Source: a virus. Taken from it: a stretch of 64,000 nucleotides of DNA. Shown here one piece after another: positions 131-57,058 of the stretch. Both the position numbers and the translations under genes were made by a program. Below the pieces are notes generated by a model, which worked only from the letters and a program-made list of their open reading frames with translations, was not told where the DNA came from and made no database searches. The stretch lies in the IMG/VR virus record IMGVR_UViG_3300044846_005100, positions 32,001 through 96,000 of that record; one strand, 5' to 3'. Each line of letters begins with the position of its first letter. Positions within the stretch are counted from its first letter, which is position 1.

Positions 131-134
131 TTGT

Positions 135-214
135 TGGAAGGGACGGATTCGAACCGCCGTACTCTGAGAGAACAGATTTACAGTCTGCCGGTTTTAGCCA
201 CTCACCCACCTTCC
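135..214 (-). tRNA. tRNA-Tyr(GTA)
   Basis: Cloverleaf GGAAGG..CCTTCC, anticodon loop CTGTAAA, long variable arm, GGTTCGAATCC T-arm. Confidence 0.95.
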
Positions 215-220
215 AATAAA

Positions 221-357
221 TAAGCTGAAGAAAGTTAGAAAGGCATATTTATGTTGCATAAAACGGGGATCGAACCCGTGACCTTTTAAACCCAATTTAA
301 ACGCTCAACCAACTGAGCTATTCACGCGAAGTAACCTTTTCTATTACTATCAGCTTA
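221..357 (-). ncRNA. Y-RNA-like scaffold Y1 with a nested complete tRNA-like module (TGG loop)
   Basis: Terminal stem TAAGCTGA/TCAGCTTA; TAGTAA-N9-TTACTTC motif; internal cloverleaf GCGTGAA..TTTATGC. Confidence 0.8.
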
Positions 358-362
358 ATAAG

Positions 363-506
363 TTAAGACGAGAAAACGAATAGAGTTTTGCTGTTATAAG
401 GCAATTTATGAGATTGCTGTCTTTACCACTTGACTAATTCTCCATGCGGGGAATATAGGATTCGAACCTATGTTTACGAAGTACCTCTAATCTTGCTACG
501 TCTTAA
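363..506 (-). ncRNA. Y-RNA-like scaffold Y2 with a circularly permuted tRNA (T-arm, closed acceptor, D-arm, CAT anticodon arm)
   Basis: Stem TTAAGACG/CGTCTTAA; TAGCAA..TACTTC; ATAGGTTCGAATCCTAT precedes the D-arm TAGTCAAGTGGTAAAGAC. Confidence 0.8.
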
Positions 507-552
507 TAATTCAATGAACTTATTTGTTTTTTAAACCCAGTCGATTAGGTTT

Positions 553-760
553 AAAAAAGAGGCCGGCTTACATTCCATCTTCCGGCCTCTTAGGCTTGAT
601 CTTCATGCTAGCATCTGATCAAAGGTAGAGCTTCGCTTCCAAACTCTTCGCTCTCTAAAAAGGCAGCCGTCTCTTATGGGATCGCCAGCAGGATACCTTA
701 AGTCTTATAGTGAACTTAACAAAACTACTATTAGCTCATAGCTGAGGGAATATCTTCCAA
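553..760 (-). ncRNA. Unnamed structured RNA candidate ending in a terminator-like hairpin
   Basis: GC-rich non-coding sequence; AAGAGGCCGG/CCGGCCTCTT stem followed by a T run on the minus strand. Confidence 0.4.
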
Positions 761-764
761 ATGA

Positions 765-903
765 TAAAGGTAAAGAAAGTTTCCAACCGAGATTTTAGCG
801 CTCTATCCAGCTGAGCTAATGAGGATTACTCCCCATGTTGGATTCGAACCAACGACCTCTCGTTTAACAGACGAAGTAACGGTTTAGATTACTATTACCT
901 TTA
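765..903 (-). ncRNA. Y-RNA-like scaffold Y3 with a circularly permuted tRNA-Asn(GTT)-like module
   Basis: Stem TAAAGGTAA/TTACCTTTA; order is anticodon arm (CTGTTAA), T-arm, acceptor closed by GTAA, D-arm. Confidence 0.8.
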
Positions 904-909
904 ATAAGT

Positions 910-1074
910 TAAGATGAAGAATGTTGCAAATAGTGTTGTTTCTTAACGCGCGTCTACCAGTTCCGCCATTCCCCAATGAGTTGTTTGTAATATAGTCGGG
1001 GAAGAAGGATTCGAACCTTCAATGTACGTGCTCCAAATGCATACGAAGTAACTATTCAGCTTGCTATCATCTTA
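910..1074 (-). ncRNA. Y-RNA-like scaffold Y4 with a permuted tRNA module (T-arm, closed acceptor, Leu-type D-arm)
   Basis: Stem TAAGATGA/TCATCTTA; TAGCAA-N9-TTACTTC; GAAGGTTCGAATCCTTC precedes TGGCGGAACTGGTAGACGC. Confidence 0.8.
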
Positions 1075-1082
1075 TAATAAGT

Positions 1083-1213
1083 TTATCAGGAGAAAGTTGC
1101 AAAGGTGTAACGCTTTCGCGCTTCTGCGGGAATTGAACCCGCGGCCTATTTTGTTTAAGAAAATTGCTCAACCGCTGAGCTAAGAAGTAACCTTTTGCAT
1201 TACTACCCGATAA
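1083..1213 (-). ncRNA. Y-RNA-like scaffold Y5 with D, anticodon (TAA) and T arms fused through the acceptor position
   Basis: Stem TTATCGGG/CCTGATAA; CTTCT/AGAAG replaces the acceptor stem. Confidence 0.8.
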
Positions 1214-1242
1214 TTAATTTTTTCAAAGAACTTGTTTACTTT

Positions 1243-1253
1243 ATTATAATACT
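1243..1253 (-). promoter_or_regulatory. AGTATTATAAT promoter-like motif (also at 6574-6584 and 7087-7097)
   Basis: Identical intergenic 11-mer, three times, about 24-34 nt upstream of an RNA or ORF start. Confidence 0.55.
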
Positions 1254-1294
1254 AAGAATCCCTTTACGTTTAAAATTATTCTTAATATTTTTTG

Positions 1295-1368
1295 TAGTCA
1301 AGACAGGAGTCGAACCTGCAATCTCCCCAACATTCTGTCGGGGCGCGTTACCAATTAGCCACCTGACT
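1295..1368 (-). ncRNA. Atypical tRNA-like RNA (AGTCAGG acceptor family) with an extended anticodon arm
   Basis: AGTCAGG/CTTGACT acceptor, GCAGGTTCGACTCCTGT T-arm, 7-bp anticodon stem with 5-nt loop. Confidence 0.7.
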
Positions 1369-1373
1369 ATAAA

Positions 1374-1464
1374 AAGGATTGCTGGGGGAATACTGTCGAG
1401 AGTATGTTTGGTTTGCGTTTCAGATACAAGAAGTAACTCTGTAACTTGCCACCCAGCAATCTTT
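1374..1464 (-). ncRNA. Y-RNA-like scaffold Y6, minimal, with no tRNA module
   Basis: Stem GATTGCTGGG/CCCAGCAATC; TGGCAA-N9-TTACTTC; begins about 10 nt after the Ro60 stop codon. Confidence 0.75.
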
Positions 1465-1473
1465 ATTTTTTAT

Positions 1474-3102
1474 TTAGATCTTGATCTTTCGAACTTTCTC
1501 TAAGTGATAGTTTGGATTGAATTCGCTTTTCGCGATATCATCGAACATTGAGTATCCGTATCCATAGTAGAAACGAACTTTATCTCCTGCAAGTTGAGTC
1601 GTTCCATAAGCTGCTAGATCCACCGAGTAAACGTATGGGCTTCCGCATGCTTTTGTGTATGACTCGTATGCTTTGTAGCTGCTTCCGCGGTTACACTCAT
1701 TGTCAGATAAGATAAACACTCGGTCATACTGACGTCCAGACATTTGAGCTACTGCCCATGCGGCTGAAAGATTGGTTCCTCCCATATCTCTCTTCATTGC
1801 GCTAGCAATAGAGAATACATCAGAGTTAGCGTTCCATTTTACGTATTCAGCACTTGAACCGAATCGAATAACGTCTCCATTTGTTGCCTTTGCAATGGTT
1901 GCTGCAATTAATGCTGCCTTGTCCATGCATCGGCTAGTGTAACGTTTTCCGCTTCTTGCGCCATCAGTCATTGGAGTACCCATTGATCCAGAGAAATCCA
2001 CCATTACTAGAGTCTTACCAGGAAGCATCTCTGAAAGGTTTGGCACTGCTGCTTCATATCCTTTAAGTAATGCTTGTGCAATCGCTCTGGAGTTAGAATC
2101 AGAAAATTCTGAGATCGTTACCTCGTGAGCTAGGTCAATTTGGTATGGCATAATCTTTCCTTTTCGGATTGCGTCTGGACTAGATAGCAGAGCAGTCAAC
2201 TTAGTAACCGTGTCTCCTTTGTTAACTGTCTTCAATACATTTCTAATATTTCGAAGAGCAGCTAGGATTCCCAGTTTACCGTCAGTTAATAGAGCATCCC
2301 AGTTTTCAGCTTTCGCTTCTTTTAAGATTGTCTCGGCTTCGGACTTGTCGATTTTACCCTCTTTCACAGCTTTCGCAACCTCTTGACCTGCGTCAGATTG
2401 TGCTACTTCCCAAGTATCAGCTGAAACGCTTAAGCCTTTCATGATAGCGGAAAGAACTGGCACTTTTTCTCCATTTACTTCGGCTACTGCACTAGAAGCC
2501 TTTGGATTTGGGTGAACCAGGTTGATCACGTCAACTAGAGAGCTCTTGTATTTAAGTAGTGCATAAGCATCTAAGTTTTCAAGAGCATCCGCGAATCCTT
2601 TTTTCATCGCATTGGTTACCTTTGTTCCATTCAGTGCTGAGAAGCAAGCAACGATTTCTGCCATATCATCTGGACGGAATAGAGTTCCTCCGGATTGAGT
2701 ACGTTTGTTCCATAGGGAATAGAAACGTTTTGCCCATTCTTGACCCGCACAGTGTGGAGCTAGGTAGCTTGCTGCAAGGTGGTTAATTGATCTCATTCCT
2801 TCACCAACACATCTCGAATAAACGATTGATTGAGCTACGAAGTATGCATCTTCTTCTGCACACTCATCGACTAGTCCTTTCAACTCCCTCATCGTTTCTG
2901 TCTCAGAACGATAGAATTGATTTTCTAGCTTTAGTGTGTTTAACATCGTCAGGAGACGAAGCCACTTATCTTGTGAATAAGCTGCATGTCCTTGACGATT
3001 CTTAGTGTCTGGTTTTGGGATTTTCACCGCTTCTACCAGGTTCGCTTGAGGCTGCATTCCAGCTAGCGTCGAACGAAGCTTGTCGTTTCTAAACTTTGTC
3101 AT
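1474..3102 (-). CDS. rsr: Ro60/Rsr-like TROVE-domain RNA-binding protein with C-terminal vWA domain
   Basis: 542 aa; TROVE-like motifs (DTWE, ALRNIRN, MPY), vWA MIDAS DFSGSM, GGTN, LSDNE. Confidence 0.9.
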   Translation of the reverse strand: MTKFRNDKLRSTLAGMQPQANLVEAVKIPKPDTKNRQGHAAYSQDKWLRLLTMLNTLKLENQFYRSETETMRELKGLVDECAEEDAYFVAQSIVYSRCVGEGMRSINHLAASYLAPHCAGQEWAKRFYSLWNKRTQSGGTLFRPDDMAEIVACFSALNGTKVTNAMKKGFADALENLDAYALLKYKSSLVDVINLVHPNPKASSAVAEVNGEKVPVLSAIMKGLSVSADTWEVAQSDAGQEVAKAVKEGKIDKSEAETILKEAKAENWDALLTDGKLGILAALRNIRNVLKTVNKGDTVTKLTALLSSPDAIRKGKIMPYQIDLAHEVTISEFSDSNSRAIAQALLKGYEAAVPNLSEMLPGKTLVMVDFSGSMGTPMTDGARSGKRYTSRCMDKAALIAATIAKATNGDVIRFGSSAEYVKWNANSDVFSIASAMKRDMGGTNLSAAWAVAQMSGRQYDRVFILSDNECNRGSSYKAYESYTKACGSPYVYSVDLAAYGTTQLAGDKVRFYYGYGYSMFDDIAKSEFNPNYHLEKVRKIKI

Positions 3103-3196
3103 TAGTACAAGGAATTAATTTTTGTTTGTGATTAATACTATACAATAATTAAATTGATAGTTTCACGTTTTGCTTAAACTTTTTTCGAAAAAGGTT

Positions 3197-3272
3197 TGGT
3201 GCACCCTACAGGGATCGAACCTGTGACATCTTGCATGTAAAACAAGCGCTCTACCAGCTGAGCTAAAGGTGC
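3197..3272 (-). tRNA. tRNA-Val(TAC), CCA encoded
   Basis: Cloverleaf, anticodon loop TTTACAT. Confidence 0.95.
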
Positions 3273-3339
3273 ATAATAAACTCATTTTTGTTACAATAAA
3301 CAGTATTAGTTTATTGATACAAATTTATGTTTATTGAAT

Positions 3340-3460
3340 TGGTGGGGAAGGGCTTCTTAGGGCCAAATCATTAAATTTACTGTTTAATTGCGATGAAACT
3401 CTTTAATTACTATCATTGCTGAAGAACGGCAAAAGAGCGAATTGTTTTGCATTCTTCCCC
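3340..3460 (-). ncRNA. Inside-out Y-like RNA Y7: acceptor stem plus ACCA enclosing a permuted scaffold motif
   Basis: GGGGAAG/CTTCCCC-ACCA ends; internal CTCTTTTGCCGTTCTTCA-GCAA-TGATAGTAATTAAAGAG. Confidence 0.6.
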
Positions 3461-3465
3461 ATGTG

Positions 3466-3540
3466 TGATCCCGGTGGGGCTCGAACCCACGACTCCCTCA
3501 TTAAAAGTGAGGTGCTCTAAACCAACTGAGCTACGAGATC
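3466..3540 (-). tRNA. tRNA-Lys(TTT)
   Basis: Cloverleaf, loop CTTTTAA. Confidence 0.95.
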
Positions 3541-3593
3541 TCTCGTTTGCGACTCTTGTCGCTCTTGTCACTTTCCATAATCTTTGGATTTTT

Positions 3594-3812
3594 TTAAAGG
3601 TTTGTGATGTATCTGTTTAATAATTTTGCATCCATTAATGGATAAAAATCAGTATCTCCCATGTCTGTAACTGGAACTTGAAATTCAATATCTACTGTTT
3701 TACTTTCATGTTCAATTGGGGCTGAATAATAGGCTACTCCTAATCTGATGAACTTTAATTTTGCAATAGGCTTTTGTTTATAAAGCTCTTTTTTAATTAC
3801 GGTTTTTTCCAT
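3594..3812 (-). CDS. Hypothetical protein within the tRNA array
   Basis: 72-aa ORF with an A-rich leader. Confidence 0.75.
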   Translation of the reverse strand: MEKTVIKKELYKQKPIAKLKFIRLGVAYYSAPIEHESKTVDIEFQVPVTDMGDTDFYPLMDAKLLNRYITNL

Positions 3813-3829
3813 GAGTTTAATTTTTTATT

Positions 3830-3903
3830 TATGGATCACTCTATTTTAATTTGTGGCTCATCAGTCGAATAAAGTGATCCATATTGAATCGACTGATGAG
3901 CCA
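3830..3903 (-). other. H-type RNA pseudoknot
   Basis: 15-bp perfect stem 3854-3868/3889-3903; its loop 3873-3883 is complementary to 3830-3840 (11 bp). Confidence 0.7.
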
Positions 3904-3908
3904 TATTG

Positions 3909-3981
3909 TCTAAGCAGCAGGGATCGAACCTGCGGTCTCGTGGTCCCAAACCACGCGGATTACCAACTTTCCCATGCCTAG
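3909..3981 (-). tRNA. tRNA-Pro(TGG)
   Basis: Cloverleaf, loop TTTGGGA. Confidence 0.92.
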
Positions 3982-4043
3982 TTGTCCACTGTGTAGCATG
4001 CCGAAACAAGACTTTTTATATAGCGCACAGTGGATCGCTTTTG

Positions 4044-4127
4044 AGGAAGCCTGAGGTGTCGATCCCCATACCTTTCAGTACCAACTGTTTTCAAGACAGT
4101 GTTGCAGGCCGCTGCAATTAAACTTCC
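4044..4127 (-). tRNA. tRNA-Ser(TGA), atypical D and T loops
   Basis: Loop CTTGAAA, long variable arm, D-arm TTGCA-GCGGCC-TGCAA, T-loop ATCGACA. Confidence 0.8.
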
Positions 4128-4133
4128 TTATTG

Positions 4134-4204
4134 TTCTCCCCCAAGGATTCGAACCTCGGTCACTTGGCCCAAAACCAAGGGTCCTGCCGCTAGACGAGGG
4201 GAGA
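4134..4204 (-). tRNA. tRNA-Gln(TTG)
   Basis: Cloverleaf, loop TTTTGGG. Confidence 0.92.
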
Positions 4205-4212
4205 ATTTAAAG

Positions 4213-4229
4213 CCAATATGTCAAAGAAC
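4213..4229 (-). promoter_or_regulatory. rrn-type boxA antitermination element (identical copy at 6351-6367; variants at 1222-1231 and 510-519)
   Basis: GTTCTTTGACATATTGG on the minus strand, upstream of tRNAs. Confidence 0.6.
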
Positions 4230-4260
4230 ATTTTTTAGATTGAAGTTCAACAATCTTTTG

Positions 4261-4333
4261 AGCTTTCGACCGGGTTCGAACCGATGGCCACTTGATTACA
4301 AATCAAGAGCTCTACCAACTGAGCTACGAAAGC
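4261..4333 (-). tRNA. tRNA-Thr(TGT)
   Basis: Cloverleaf, loop TTTGTAA. Confidence 0.95.
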
Positions 4334-4341
4334 AATAAAAC

Positions 4342-4373
4342 AAAAAAAACCCGAATCGTTTGGACTCGGGTTT
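4342..4373 (-). terminator. Intrinsic terminator (attenuator 1)
   Basis: AAACCCGAGTC/GATTCGGGTTT stem followed by a T run. Confidence 0.8.
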
Positions 4374-4397
4374 CTTTTAGTTTGATATAGTTAAGAT

Positions 4398-4553
4398 TTA
4401 CATCAATTCCCGAGTATTTTTTAAGTGTTGTTTAGGATCAATAATCGTATTTGAGAAGCGCACAACATTAAAATCACAGTTCGTGTTCCAGCTCATCGGC
4501 GAGCTACTTAACGACTGATACGAAGATTTTAATATGTTGTTAATGTTTTTCAT
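4398..4553 (-). CDS. Putative leader peptide 1 (51 aa)
   Basis: MKNINNILKSSYQSLSSSPMSWNTNCDFNVVRFSNTIIDPKQHLKNTRELM; its 3' end carries ACTCGGG, complementary to the terminator 5' arm. Confidence 0.6.
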   Translation of the reverse strand: MKNINNILKSSYQSLSSSPMSWNTNCDFNVVRFSNTIIDPKQHLKNTRELM

Positions 4554-4668
4554 CGTGTTTATTTATCTTATCAATTTCTAATTTTTAACGCATTGGATCT
4601 TGAGGTTGCTAATATACACCTTTTATTTTAAAATAAAAAATATTTTTAGCTTTTTTTAAATTATTTTT

Positions 4669-4745
4669 TGGTGGTCCTTGCTGGAATCGAACCAGCCACC
4701 TACTGATTATGAGTCAGTTGCTCTAACCGAATGAGCTAAAGGACC
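4669..4745 (-). tRNA. tRNA with CAT anticodon (Ile2 or elongator Met), CCA encoded
   Basis: Cloverleaf GGTCCTT..AAGGACC, loop CTCATAA. Confidence 0.92.
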
Positions 4746-4908
4746 GTGTGCACGTTTTTATATTATCCCCAGAACGTACAAACTGTGCCGACACACGATT
4801 CGGAAGGCGTAGTGCGCATTGATTAAAGAATACCGAAGTATTCTAACTAACGTTCAAGAGGCTATCCCTATCTTCGATCCATACCCAGCGCTAGGCAGAG
4901 GGCTAGTT
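4746..4908 (-). ncRNA. Unnamed structured RNA candidate
   Basis: AGAATAC-TTCG-GTATTCT hairpin and further stems, between tRNA genes. Confidence 0.45.
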
Positions 4909-4909
4909 G

Positions 4910-5008
4910 TAGTCAGGAGGGGAATCGAACCCCTGTTGCCCTTAGTTGCTCTTACTTCTCAGTAAAGTGTGGGATCGAACCACACCTGGACCAAAGCTCC
5001 ACCTGACT
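4910..5008 (-). ncRNA. tRNA-like RNA (AGTCAGG family) with two T-arm-like hairpins
   Basis: AGTCAGG/CCTGACT; GTGTGG-TTCGATC-CCACAC and AGGGG-TTCGATT-CCCCT. Confidence 0.65.
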
Positions 5009-5011
5009 GTA

Positions 5012-5101
5012 AACACACTCTTCAGCTTTCTACTCCCAGCTCCGAGGAATTGTATATAACTTAGCCCATCTCACCGCTGTGTGGGAACTGAAGTTTATGT
5101 G
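5012..5101 (-). ncRNA. Unnamed structured RNA candidate
   Basis: Nested stems CTTCAG/CTGAAG and TCCCA/TGGGA. Confidence 0.5.
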
Positions 5102-5104
5102 ATG

Positions 5105-5219
5105 TAGTCAGGACAGGAATCGAACCTGTAAACCTACTTCCCATCTTCGGTTTTTTAACTCTAATGTTTAGAGTGGGTCAAACCACATTAGAGTACGTAT
5201 ACCATTCCGCCACCTGACT
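5105..5219 (-). ncRNA. tRNA-like RNA (AGTCAGG family) with a greatly expanded anticodon and variable domain
   Basis: Acceptor, D-arm TGGCGGAATGGTATACG, 10-bp ACTCTAATGT/ACATTAGAGT stem, T-arm. Confidence 0.7.
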
Positions 5220-5296
5220 ATGGACGGGCTTTTTGTCGATCTCTCTTAGGCTAGCCCGATACCGCCCTAAGTTCATTCAAGCGCTACTTGACATCG

Positions 5297-5378
5297 TACG
5301 CAAAGAGGGACTCGAACCCTCACACCTTTCGGCACTGGTTCCTAAGACCAGCGTGACTACCAATTCCACCATTCGCGC
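5297..5378 (-). tRNA. tRNA-Leu(TAG)
   Basis: Loop CTTAGGA, long variable arm. Confidence 0.95.
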
Positions 5379-5381
5379 AAA

Positions 5382-5483
5382 TTGAGGTTGAGAAGTCCTC
5401 TGTGTTGTAGTGTACGATTATGTTTTCCATAATTCAAGTAATGTCACTCATCTTTATATTTCCTTTCTCAAGGGAACAACACA
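5382..5483 (-). ncRNA. Kissing-loop RNA element, copy 1
   Basis: GTGTTGT/ACAACAC stem; TGAGAA complementary to the TTCTCA loop; second copy at 5778-5905. Confidence 0.65.
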
Positions 5484-5486
5484 AAA

Positions 5487-5620
5487 ATCATAAACAGAGG
5501 CTATTGGTGGTACCCGCGTCTAGCCATTACCAATCTAACTAGATTTGAGATGATCAAGATCACCTATACTATTTTATTCACGTAGGAATTACCCTTCTAC
5601 CTTTTCCGCGTGTTTATGAT
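5487..5620 (-). ncRNA. Unnamed structured RNA candidate
   Basis: Closing stem ATCATAAAC/GTTTATGAT. Confidence 0.45.
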
Positions 5621-5622
5621 AG

Positions 5623-5774
5623 TGGTTCTAGTAGGAATCGAACCCACCTTGTAAATTACATGCAATATGCCTTAACTTTTTACTCCGATCCTAGTATTAA
5701 GGAGTGTTAAACCAAATTGCCATCATCTACCCACTCGCGACTGCTGGGAGCTACCCACGTTATGCTATAGAACC
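5623..5774 (-). ncRNA. RNA with tRNA-like ends and an insert of about 110 nt
   Basis: GGTTCTA/TAGAACC acceptor, TAGC after the 5' strand, T-arm GTGGGTTCGATTCCTAC. Confidence 0.65.
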
Positions 5775-5777
5775 AAG

Positions 5778-5905
5778 TTGAGGATGAGAAGTCCTCTGTG
5801 TTGTGTGGTGTACCGCCGCCAGCCTTAATACATTATTTGTTGTTTAACCACCCTTAATAATATATCACTGGTACGACCGCACTCTTGTTTCTCAAGAAAC
5901 AACAC
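5778..5905 (-). ncRNA. Kissing-loop RNA element, copy 2
   Basis: Same conserved ends as 5382-5483 with a different insert. Confidence 0.65.
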
Positions 5906-5909
5906 GTAG

Positions 5910-5982
5910 TGGAGCAGGTGGGATTCGAACCCACATCCTCTACCTTGCAAAGGTAGCGCTCAGCCAGTTGAGCTACAACCCC
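5910..5982 (-). tRNA. tRNA-Ala(TGC)
   Basis: Cloverleaf, G3:U70 pair, loop TTTGCAA. Confidence 0.95.
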
Positions 5983-5989
5983 ATTTAAA

Positions 5990-6183
5990 AAACAAGTCTT
6001 CCGTGCTCACCACGGGTTTGGATTTGACTGATGGTTTGTTCCCCATCACCTGTTGACGTGCACATCAGAGCAGGGTCCATTACAGGATACCTTGGGGCAT
6101 TCAAACTCTCAGTAAAGGTTGCGATCCTATGAGAGCCAAGGTTTCTTTCATCCGCGCTATTCGGACTTCTGTAAGACTTGTTT
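5990..6183 (-). ncRNA. Large (about 194 nt) multi-stem ncRNA candidate
   Basis: 11-bp closing stem AAACAAGTCTT/AAGACTTGTTT; internal CCTTGG/CCAAGG, CTCTCA/TGAGAG and TGATGG/CCATCA. Confidence 0.6.
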
Positions 6184-6185
6184 AG

Positions 6186-6259
6186 AGCAGGTAGTCGGAC
6201 TCGAACCGACAACCCTCGCCTTGGAAGGGCGACGCTCTAGCCAATTGAGCTATACCTGC
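6186..6259 (-). tRNA. tRNA-Gly(TCC)
   Basis: Cloverleaf, loop CTTCCAA. Confidence 0.95.
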
Positions 6260-6266
6260 TTATTTG

Positions 6267-6340
6267 TGATCCCGGCACGATTCGAACGTGCGACCTTCGC
6301 CTTAGAAGGGCGTTGCTCTATCCGGCTGAGCTACGGAACC
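6267..6340 (-). tRNA. tRNA-Arg(TCT)
   Basis: Cloverleaf, loop CTTCTAA. Confidence 0.95.
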
Positions 6341-6389
6341 GTTTTTAGATCCAATATGTCAAAGAACTTTGGTACAAAATGTACCGCAG

Positions 6390-6462
6390 TAGCGGGGGCC
6401 AGATTCGAACTGACGTCCTCGGGTTATGAGCCCGCCGAGAATACCATCTTCTCCACCCCGCT
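6390..6462 (-). tRNA. tRNA-Met(CAT), initiator-like
   Basis: GGG/CCC anticodon stem, loop CTCATAA. Confidence 0.9.
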
Positions 6463-6468
6463 ATATTG

Positions 6469-6540
6469 TACTGCCACGGAGAATCGAACTCCGATTTTAT
6501 GGATGAAAACCATAGGTCCTAACCGTTAGACGATGGCAGC
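6469..6540 (-). tRNA. tRNA-Glu(TTC)
   Basis: Cloverleaf, loop TTTTCAT. Confidence 0.93.
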
Positions 6541-51941: not shown

Positions 51942-52021
51942 ATTTTTTATTTTTACTACTTGCACCCCGAAAGGTGCAACGCTTTTGGCTTAAAGTCTAT
52001 TTATAGTTGCCAAAACAACTT

Positions 52022-56960: not shown

Positions 56961-57031
56961 GCCTCTATGACCGAGTGGCTAGGTGTAGGTCTGCAAAATC
57001 TATTACGGAGGTTCGATCCCTTCTGGAGACT
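56961..57031 (+). tRNA. tRNA-Cys(GCA), one acceptor mismatch
   Basis: Loop CTGCAAA, GGTTCGATCCC, U73. Confidence 0.75.
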
Positions 57032-57058
57032 CTTTTTAAAACAAAAAACATTAAAATT

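What the first reader, a model, noticed from the sequence alone, without database searches (positions are those of the whole stretch)
221..357. A complete tRNA nested inside a Y-like stem (Y1), versus acceptor-fused Y5 and empty Y6
Seen: Y1 encloses a full cloverleaf (acceptor GCGTGAA/TTTATGC, loop ATTGGGT) whose acceptor is unlike the tRNA-Pro at 3909. Y5 uses the scaffold's CTTC as a 5-bp acceptor and presents a TAA loop. Y6 has no tRNA module. Inference: the scaffold has captured tRNA modules several times independently. Y1 may be a caged tRNA that is released on processing.
Basis: partly seen in the sequence, partly recalled or inferred. Interest (0 to 1): 0.7.

Follow-up and report, generated by a model that had tools for sequence, protein, structure and literature searches.

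The report
Whole tRNA inside phage Y-RNA stem
A freshwater phage carries, next to its Ro60 gene, a small RNA in which a complete tRNA-shaped fold is held by its acceptor end inside a conserved stem; relatives keep the shape but change the anticodon freely, so it is most likely a Ro60-partner (Y-type) RNA with a tRNA mimic, not a working tRNA.

Summary
On the minus strand, 357-221 is a 137-nt RNA. A 7-bp closing stem, a conserved bulged "handle", a second stem and an invariant single-stranded UUACUUC enclose a full cloverleaf (327-255, Rfam tRNA 60 bits, anticodon UGG).

It lies 1.1 kb downstream of a Ro60 (TROVE+vWA) gene, as the last of six RNAs sharing this handle. The handle motif occurs nowhere else in the complete 140-kb phage genome.

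I found 40 distinct orthologues in viral and metagenome contigs. The stems and cloverleaf covary (90% of cells paired against 72% in shuffles, 0/500 shuffles as good). Tertiary pairs 15:48 and 19:56 covary as well.

The anticodon is not conserved: at least 16 triplets, plus 6- and 8-nt loops. Free tRNAs from the same loci with ≥85% body identity share the anticodon in 92/93 pairs; nested ones in 8/38.

Best reading (0.6): a Ro60-associated Y-type RNA with an in-order tRNA mimic, similar in layout to Deinococcus Yrn1 and not to permuted YrlA. "Caged tRNA released for decoding" is disfavoured. "Independent capture" is not shown.

It is a new variant of a known kind. Unchecked notes from this scan describe similar handle-tagged tRNA mimics beside Ro60-like genes in other phages.

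The parts
221..357 (-). Y1: whole stem-enclosed RNA (about 137 nt)
   Evidence: Sequence. Covariance model R1 matches 216-358 at 156.5 bits over its full length. Covariation.
350..356 (-). Closing stem, 5' strand (AAGCUGA)
   Evidence: Pairs with 222-228. Every pair shows 4-6 pair types among 40 orthologues.
222..228 (-). Closing stem, 3' strand (UCAGCUU)
   Evidence: A free tRNA-Tyr starts 6 nt further on.
344..349 (-). Handle core, 5' strand: bulged U followed by AGUAA
   Evidence: Conserved as UAG(U/C)AA in all six copies in the window and in about 105 scaffolds of related loci. The A:U pair changes to G:C in 6 distant members.
229..233 (-). Handle core, 3' strand (UUUCU)
   Evidence: Pairs with AGUAA around a central pyrimidine-pyrimidine mismatch.
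335..343 (-). Second stem, 5' strand with one bulged A
   Evidence: Pairs with 236-243; covaries.
236..243 (-). Second stem, 3' strand
328..334 (-). Invariant UUACUUC, unpaired in Y1, ending at C(-1)
   Evidence: Invariant columns in A1 and A3. C(-1) and G1 are present in 40/40.
255..327 (-). Nested tRNA-shaped module (D, anticodon and T arms in normal order; 7-bp acceptor; A73; no C74)
   Evidence: ARAGORN. Rfam tRNA 60.1 bits. Arms 98-100% paired. Tertiary pairs covary.
290..296 (-). Anticodon loop AUUGGGU (triplet UGG at 294-292)
   Evidence: The triplet differs among orthologues, while U33 and purine 37 are kept.
244..254 (-). A-rich 3' linker between discriminator and second stem
   Evidence: Variable and A-rich in all orthologues.
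1474..3102 (-). Ro60 homologue (542 aa), the presumed protein partner
   Evidence: Pfam TROVE 30.3 bits (cut-off 23) and vWA_Ro60 25.1 bits (cut-off 27.7). Matches Thermus phage phiLo Ro60 structures 9KOP/9L5Y over residues 31-516, E 1e-12.
133..215 (-). Free tRNA-Tyr whose 5' end probably sets the 3' end of Y1

Best explanation
Y1 is a discrete small RNA of the Y-RNA kind, most likely a partner of the phage's own Ro60 protein.

Its 5' and 3' ends pair into a rod made of a closing stem, a conserved bulged handle and a second stem. This rod is the presumed Ro60-binding part. It presents, as the effector module, a complete L-shaped tRNA mimic attached through its acceptor end.

The module is selected for tRNA shape (cloverleaf, elbow, U-turn loop), not for a codon. 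It probably stays attached to the handle and serves as a docking surface for a tRNA-recognising factor. It does not act as a decoder.

RNase P may nick it between C(-1) and G1, with the two pieces staying paired.

Shown: the structure, its conservation, its position beside Ro60, and the loss of anticodon constancy.
Inferred: Ro60 binding, non-release, and the partner.
For: 1. Location. Six copies of the handle motif lie in 1.25 kb directly downstream of Ro60 on the same strand. None occurs elsewhere in the complete 140-kb genome.
2. Recurrence. The same handle recurs beside Ro60 genes of 37-99% identity in viral contigs. It also lies within 0.3-4.4 kb of a Ro60 homologue in 11 of 26 loci that were found by an RNA pattern alone.
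3. Structure. The stems and cloverleaf covary. Tertiary pairs covary too: 15:48 is G:C in 25 and A:U in 12; 19:56 is G:C in 29 and A:U in 7.
4. Shared handle. The same handle carries permuted, YrlA-like modules (about 64 scaffolds) and empty ones (about 13). The handle's role therefore does not depend on releasing a tRNA.
5. Anticodon. Nested pairs with ≥85% body identity share the anticodon in 8/38 cases, against 92/93 for free tRNAs. There are at least 16 triplets plus 6- and 8-nt loops. The sister Y5-type carries UUA and UCA.
6. 3' end. Y1 has A74 where all 15 free tRNAs of the window have C74.
7. Defined end. A free tRNA starts 5-8 nt after the closing stem in about 20 of 39 orthologues, and a U-run follows in several others.
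8. Precedent. Y RNAs with tRNA-like modules lie beside Ro60, and Yrn1 has the D-anticodon-T order (PMC4201824). A phage Ro60 binds phage-encoded Y-like RNAs (PMC12135203).
Against: - No binding or expression data exist.
- The handle lacks the GNCGAAN0-1G / CGAA motif of described bacterial and phage Y RNAs. Rfam YrlA gives no hit on Y1.
- Some loci with good flanks show no Ro60 within 4-7 kb (L104, L103, L096). One 38.8-kb fragment with five scaffolds has none.
- The module is a very good tRNA with a 7-bp acceptor, a single-stranded leader and A73, so release by RNase P and 3' processing cannot be excluded.
- Variation at positions 34-35 is about as high as at unconstrained linker positions. 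It may therefore be drift, not function.
Confidence: 0.6

Rival explanations
1. Caged pro-tRNA. The stem is a processing or storage device. RNase P and a 3' nuclease release a working tRNA, which receives CCA, is charged and decodes.
For: - The cloverleaf is full, with all tertiary pairs.
- G1 is preceded by a single-stranded leader in 40/40 orthologues.
- Most free tRNAs of this phage also lack an encoded CCA.
- M. smegmatis YrlA is cut by RNase P and receives CCA in vivo (PMC4201824).
- 9 of 17 close orthologues have G3:U70 with A73. From general knowledge this is the alanine identity set, which does not depend on the anticodon.
Against: - The same body carries Pro, Leu, Gln, Gly, Ile, Ser, Cys, Asp, Arg, Lys and opal-reading triplets, and non-7-nt loops.
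- The other 8 of 17 close orthologues have A3:U70.
- Y1 has A74 where the free tRNAs have C74.
- It duplicates a normal tRNA-Pro(UGG) in the same genome, which carries C1:G72 where Y1 has G1:C72; from general knowledge C1:G72 is the bacterial proline type.
- The same handle holds permuted and empty cargo.
- The genome shows no CCA-adding enzyme or RtcB.
Confidence: 0.15
2. The handle has nothing to do with Ro60. It is a stabilising or processing stem (for example a double-strand nuclease or RNase E site, or a terminator) used for tRNA-like RNAs inside phage tRNA arrays, or it binds another protein.
For: - The handle differs from the known Ro60-binding motif.
- Several loci show no Ro60 nearby.
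- The scaffolds always sit among tRNAs.
Against: - In the one complete genome, all six copies abut Ro60.
- The association holds down to 37% Ro60 identity and in loci found through the RNA alone.
- Invariant unpaired and bulged nucleotides indicate sequence-specific protein recognition, beyond what a plain processing helix needs.
Confidence: 0.15
3. A decaying tRNA gene whose flanks pair by chance.
For: The single-sequence fold is only marginally better than shuffles (z -1.9). The region is AT-rich.
Against: There are 40 orthologues with compensatory changes in every closing-stem pair and in tertiary pairs. Model R1 gives 85-157 bits for full-length hits, whereas free tRNAs match only positions 32-115 at 66 bits or less.
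Confidence: 0.01

Closest known systems
Deinococcus radiodurans Yrn1 (Ro60/Rsr-bound Y RNA; Chen et al. 2014, PMC4201824)
   Same: The terminal stem is formed by the 5' and 3' ends. The tRNA-like part is in D, anticodon-like, T order, so the Y stem stands where the acceptor stem would be. The gene lies beside Ro60.
   Different: As described in that paper, Yrn1 has no clear D arm, a 6-nt 'anticodon' loop and no variable arm. Y1 has its own 7-bp acceptor and a complete cloverleaf that tRNA finders call a tRNA. The handle sequence differs. I did not test sequence homology.
YrlA (Rfam RF02553; Salmonella, Mycobacterium, mycobacteriophages)
   Same: It is a Ro60-adjacent RNA on the same strand, with a terminal stem and a tRNA mimic that keeps the tRNA tertiary pairs, including covarying 15:48. 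M. smegmatis YrlA is cut by RNase P.
   Different: YrlA runs V, T, closed acceptor, D, with the Y stem at the anticodon position. Y1 is in normal order, with an anticodon arm and an acceptor that is open into the Y stem. There is no GNCGAAN0-1G motif. Rfam YrlA gives no hit on Y1, while the neighbour Y3 reaches only 33 bits against a threshold of 69.
Thermus phage phiLo Ro60 with Yrl1/Yrl2 (PMC12135203; PDB 9KOP, 9L5Y)
   Same: A phage Ro60 homologous to the one here (E 1e-12), with phage-encoded partner RNAs next to the gene.
   Different: As described in that paper, Yrl1 and Yrl2 have a stem-bulge-stem layout with a CGAA motif. No tRNA module or array is reported for them.
Ordinary phage tRNA genes in tRNA arrays
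   Same: Cloverleaf, tertiary pairs, and position inside a 27-tRNA array.
   Different: Y1 is enclosed by a conserved covarying stem, its anticodon is not conserved among orthologues, and it lacks the C74 shared by the free tRNAs.

Membership tests
tRNA (RF00005), as a working decoder | Cloverleaf with 7-bp acceptor, D, anticodon and T arms | tested here: met
   60.1 bits. ARAGORN. Arms 98-100% paired in orthologues.
tRNA (RF00005), as a working decoder | L-shape tertiary pairs (U8:A14, 15:48, 19:56) | tested here: met
   U8:A14 in 40/40. Pairs 15:48 and 19:56 covary.
tRNA (RF00005), as a working decoder | Anticodon (amino-acid identity) stable among close orthologues | tested here: not met
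   8/38 nested pairs against 92/93 free pairs at ≥85% body identity. At least 16 triplets, plus 6- and 8-nt loops.
tRNA (RF00005), as a working decoder | 3' end like the phage's own tRNAs (C74 or CCA) | tested here: not met
   A74 in Y1 against C74 in 15/15 free tRNAs of the window.
tRNA (RF00005), as a working decoder | Processed to 73-76 nt, given CCA and aminoacylated | not testable with these tools
   Needs RNA from infected cells.
YrlA (RF02553) | Encoded within about 4 kb of Ro60 on the same strand | tested here: met
   1.1 kb downstream on the same strand.
YrlA (RF02553) | Module order T arm, closed acceptor hairpin, D arm | tested here: not met
   Y1 has D, anticodon, T order. Its neighbours Y2-Y4 do have the YrlA order.
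YrlA (RF02553) | GNCGAAN0-1G motif on the 5' strand | tested here: not met
   The 5' strand reads U-AGUAA-U here, and UAG(U/C)AA across the family.
YrlA (RF02553) | Reaches the Rfam gathering score | tested here: not met
   No YrlA match over 221-357, even at E up to 10.
Y RNA in the broad sense (Ro60 partner RNA) | 5' and 3' ends form a long stem with a conserved bulged helix | tested here: met
   The conserved sequence is different from described ones.
Y RNA in the broad sense (Ro60 partner RNA) | Bound by Ro60 | not testable with these tools
   Only gene neighbourhood is available.

The most novel reading that the evidence does not exclude
The in-order modules (Y1-type and Y5-type) are Ro60-tethered displays of an anticodon loop. 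The triplet is swapped quickly between related phages while the tRNA shape is held. This would make them exchangeable baits, decoys or sensors for anticodon-specific factors, such as host anticodon nucleases and other tRNA-targeting defences, or tRNA-modifying enzymes. If so, a phage Ro60 particle would be part of the tRNA arms race.
Probability: 0.2. Interest if true: 0.85.

Novelty: new variant of a known kind. Interest (0 to 1): 0.62.

Why it matters
**Extends the Y-RNA picture.** Described bacterial and phage Y RNAs carry a partial or permuted tRNA mimic. This family has a different handle, comes in arrays, and includes a class whose module is a complete in-order tRNA. A natural series (full, acceptor-fused, permuted, empty) on one handle could help find what the tRNA-like module of Y RNAs binds, a question Chen et al. 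2014 (PMC4201824) left open.

**Practical consequence for annotation.** tRNA finders call these modules tRNAs. Some calls are Sup(UUA) or SeC(UCA). That inflates phage tRNA counts and could mislead inferences about stop-codon recoding or codon supplementation.

**A concrete hypothesis.** The free-running anticodon on a fixed body can be tested against tRNA-targeting defence systems (context: PMC10264068, PMC11464382).

Tried and rejected
- **TrmD-type G36G37 loop as the conserved feature.** It holds in 14 of 17 close orthologues but fails in the wider set of 40.
- **Conserved alanine identity (G3:U70).** Present in only 9 of 17; the rest have A3:U70.
- **Nested anticodon copies a free tRNA of the same phage.** 11/27 observed against 13.2 in shuffles, so no signal. 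The data are partial loci.
- **Local hairpin AGUAA/UUACU** (present in the single-sequence MFE). Rejected because the UAGCAA variants break it with no compensating change in UUAC.
- **Recent capture from a free tRNA.** The nearest free tRNA is 72% identical, which is background.
- **RNA-repair context.** The genome has no RtcB and no CCA-adding enzyme, and only a sub-threshold ligase-family hit.
- **Cultured relatives.** No cultured phage has a Ro60 above 33% identity. blastn against phages found only short tRNA-like matches.
- **Whole-contig check.** Checking metagenome contigs for Ro60 was not possible.
- **Dictyostelid Class I RNA lead** (from earlier scan notes). No Rfam match at E up to 10. 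The paper gives only a 'stem plus adjacent motif ending CAA' layout (PMC7919456). I could not test it further.
- **Two reviews on bacterial Y RNAs** were not held in the library.

Full report
**1. What is there**

Everything relevant lies on the minus strand. An ORF at 3102-1474 encodes a 542-aa Ro60 homologue.
- Pfam TROVE scores 30.3 bits (cut-off 23). vWA_Ro60 scores 25.1 bits, just under its cut-off.
- The protein matches the solved Ro60 of Thermus phage phiLo (9KOP/9L5Y) over residues 31-516, E 1e-12.

The gene sits inside a 27-tRNA array of a complete 140-kb virus record.

Directly downstream are six RNAs with one shared architecture: a closing stem, UAG(U/C)AA, about 9 nt, (U)UACUUC, cargo, the complementary strand, UU(U/C)CU, and the closing stem again. 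This composite motif occurs six times in the 140 kb, all of them here.

Y1 (357-221) is the last of the six. Its cargo at 327-255 is called tRNA-Pro(UGG) by ARAGORN and scores 60.1 bits with Rfam tRNA. So are the descriptions of Y5 and Y6.

**2. Is it more than chance?**

The single sequence is only marginal (z -1.9). With the cloverleaf enforced, however, the flanks fold into the proposed stem within 0.7 kcal/mol of the MFE.

The decisive evidence is comparative.
- The Ro60 protein retrieved 35 viral loci at 37-99% identity. Nearly all carry the handle motif.
- Seventeen distinct Y1-type RNAs (handle plus a full in-order tRNA starting right after UUACUUC) gave alignment A1.
- A pattern scan of metagenomes and a covariance model (R1) raised this to 40 distinct RNAs.
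- Full-length model matches score 85-157 bits. Free tRNAs match only the tRNA part, at 66 bits or less.

On the MAFFT alignment of the 40 RNAs, which was not fitted to the structure:
- 90.2% of cells pair, against 72.4% in shuffles.
- 30 of 40 pairs show changes on both sides.
- No shuffle in 500 does as well.
- Slid registers give 41-56%.
- Every closing-stem pair has 4-6 pair types.
- One of the near-invariant handle pairs (A:U) changes to G:C in six distant members.

The tRNA core is also under selection for shape.
- U8:A14 is present in 40/40.
- The 15:48 pair is G:C in 25 and A:U in 12.
- The elbow pair 19:56 is G:C in 29 and A:U in 7.
- C(-1) and G1 are invariant.

**3. What it is**

The layout is that of a Y RNA: the ends pair into a stem with a conserved bulged helix, an effector module sits at the far end, and the gene is next to Ro60 on the same strand. 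Chen et al. (PMC4201824) used exactly the "within 4 kb, same strand" criterion.

The association is not only a product of how I searched. Of 26 loci found through the RNA pattern alone, 11 have a Ro60 homologue in the fetched piece, 0.3-4.4 kb away. These include very distant Ro60s.

The association is not universal. Three loci with 4-7 kb of flank show no Ro60, nor does one 38.8-kb fragment.

The handle is not the described Ro60 site.
- There is no GNCGAAN0-1G / CGAA motif.
- Rfam YrlA does not hit Y1 at all.
- Rfam YrlA hits the neighbour Y3 only in its tRNA-like core (33 bits against a threshold of 69; model positions 24-84).

Among about 105 distinct scaffolds in the viral loci:
- about 64 carry T-arm-first (YrlA-order) modules;
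- about 17 carry Y1-type modules;
- 10-13 carry Y5-type modules;
- about 13 carry nothing.

Y1 is therefore a recurrent minority class. Its topology (D, anticodon, T, with the Y stem at the acceptor) matches what Chen et al. describe for Deinococcus Yrn1, not YrlA.

**4. Does it work as a tRNA?**

Probably not as a decoder.

(a) The anticodon is not conserved.
- Among tRNAs called in the same loci, free-standing pairs with ≥85% identity outside the anticodon loop share the anticodon in 92 of 93 cases. Handle-nested pairs do so in 8 of 38.
- The window's Y1 and its orthologue in L006 are 97% identical in body but read UGG and UAG.
- Across the 40 there are at least 16 triplets, two 8-nt loop types and one 6-nt loop. 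U33 (about 37/39) and a purine at 37 (about 36/39) are kept.

(b) The sister Y5-type carries UUA (ochre-reading) and UCA (opal-reading) triplets in several phages.

(c) All 15 free tRNAs of the window have C74 after the discriminator. Y1 has A74, and so do most of its orthologues.

(d) The genome already has a normal tRNA-Pro(UGG) with C1:G72. From general knowledge this is the bacterial proline type. Y1 has G1:C72.

(e) The same handle carries cargo that cannot yield a tRNA.

Against this, the module is an excellent RNase P substrate on paper. M. smegmatis YrlA is cut by RNase P and receives CCA while remaining Ro60-bound (PMC4201824). A nick is therefore plausible, and release cannot be excluded without RNA data.

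Variability at positions 34-35 is about that of unconstrained linker columns. I can say the triplet is unconstrained. I cannot say it is under diversifying selection.

**5. Ends and dynamics**

- In about 20 of 39 orthologues a normal tRNA starts 5-8 nt after the closing stem (tRNA-Tyr here). In several others a U-run follows. The 3' end of the stem-enclosed RNA is thus well defined.
- Upstream, Y1 abuts Y2.
- A terminator-like hairpin with a U6 tail lies between Y3 and Y2.
- The Y2-Y1 block is missing in the closest relatives (L001/L002, about 92% DNA identity).
- The block lies upstream of Ro60 in L006 and L014.
- Y1 is 92% identical between the window and L006, while the Ro60 genes are only 73% identical.
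- The units therefore behave as movable cassettes.

**6.

"Captured several times independently" is not shown. Each type is an old lineage, and the nearest free tRNA is at background similarity.

"Caged tRNA" is disfavoured for the reasons given in section 4.

**7. Novelty**

Y RNAs with tRNA mimicry, and phage Ro60 with partner RNAs, are known (PMC4201824, PMC12135203). I found none of the following in the papers searched or in Rfam:
- this handle;
- arrays of it;
- a class with a complete in-order tRNA;
- the free-running anticodon.

No cultured phage has a close Ro60.

Unchecked notes from this scan report similar handle-tagged tRNA mimics beside Ro60-like genes in many other phages. The general phenomenon has therefore been seen before on other DNA by this scan. 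None of the notes my word searches returned mentions the anticodon control or the tertiary covariation.

Noticed in passing
window 1118-1189 (-), and Y5-type modules in L005, L007, L012, L029, L008, L010: ARAGORN calls the acceptor-fused modules tRNA-Leu(UAA), tRNA-Stop(UUA), tRNA-SeC(UCA) and so on. They have no long variable arm, although a true type II tRNA-Leu(UAA) exists at genome 31132-31219. Such calls could be mistaken for suppressor tRNAs or as evidence of recoding.
   Followed up: partly
window 1294-1368 (-): A weak tRNA-Phe(GAA) (39.5 bits) lies between Y6 and Y5. It duplicates a tRNA-Phe(GAA) at genome 30771-30846 and may be another non-standard tRNA-like RNA.
   Followed up: no
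window 551-591 (-): A strong terminator-like hairpin (10-bp GC-rich stem) followed by U6 lies between Y3 and Y2. The array may therefore be two transcription units.
   Followed up: partly
window 133-6540 (-) and 56961-57032 (+): All 15 free tRNAs have C74 after the discriminator, but only two (Val at 3197-3272 and Met at 4669-4745) encode a full CCA.
   Followed up: partly
window 185-550 compared with L001/L002 (6409-6450), L006 (3373-3535) and L014 (2085-2722): The Y2-Y1 block is an indel between phages of about 92% identity and sits on the other side of Ro60 in others. Y1 is far better conserved (92%) than the Ro60 gene (73%) between the window and L006.
   Followed up: partly
window 3335-3462 (-): A further element upstream of Ro60 has a handle-like UAGUAA stretch inside a 7-bp GGGGAAG/CUUCCCC stem ending ACCA. 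Its fold is not better than shuffles (z -1.15).
   Followed up: partly
window 6023-6084 (-) and 51954-52020 (-): freshwater-1 RNA (86 bits) lies inside the tRNA array. A Pistol ribozyme (65 bits) lies elsewhere in the window.
   Followed up: no
Xylella phage Usme LR743523.1, 39002-39095 and 39280-40386 (and 10 related Xanthomonas phages): An unannotated stretch 80% identical to the Y3 tRNA-like module lies about 200 nt from an unannotated Ro60-like 'hypothetical protein'. This is probably an unannotated YrlA-type RNA in cultured phages.
   Followed up: no
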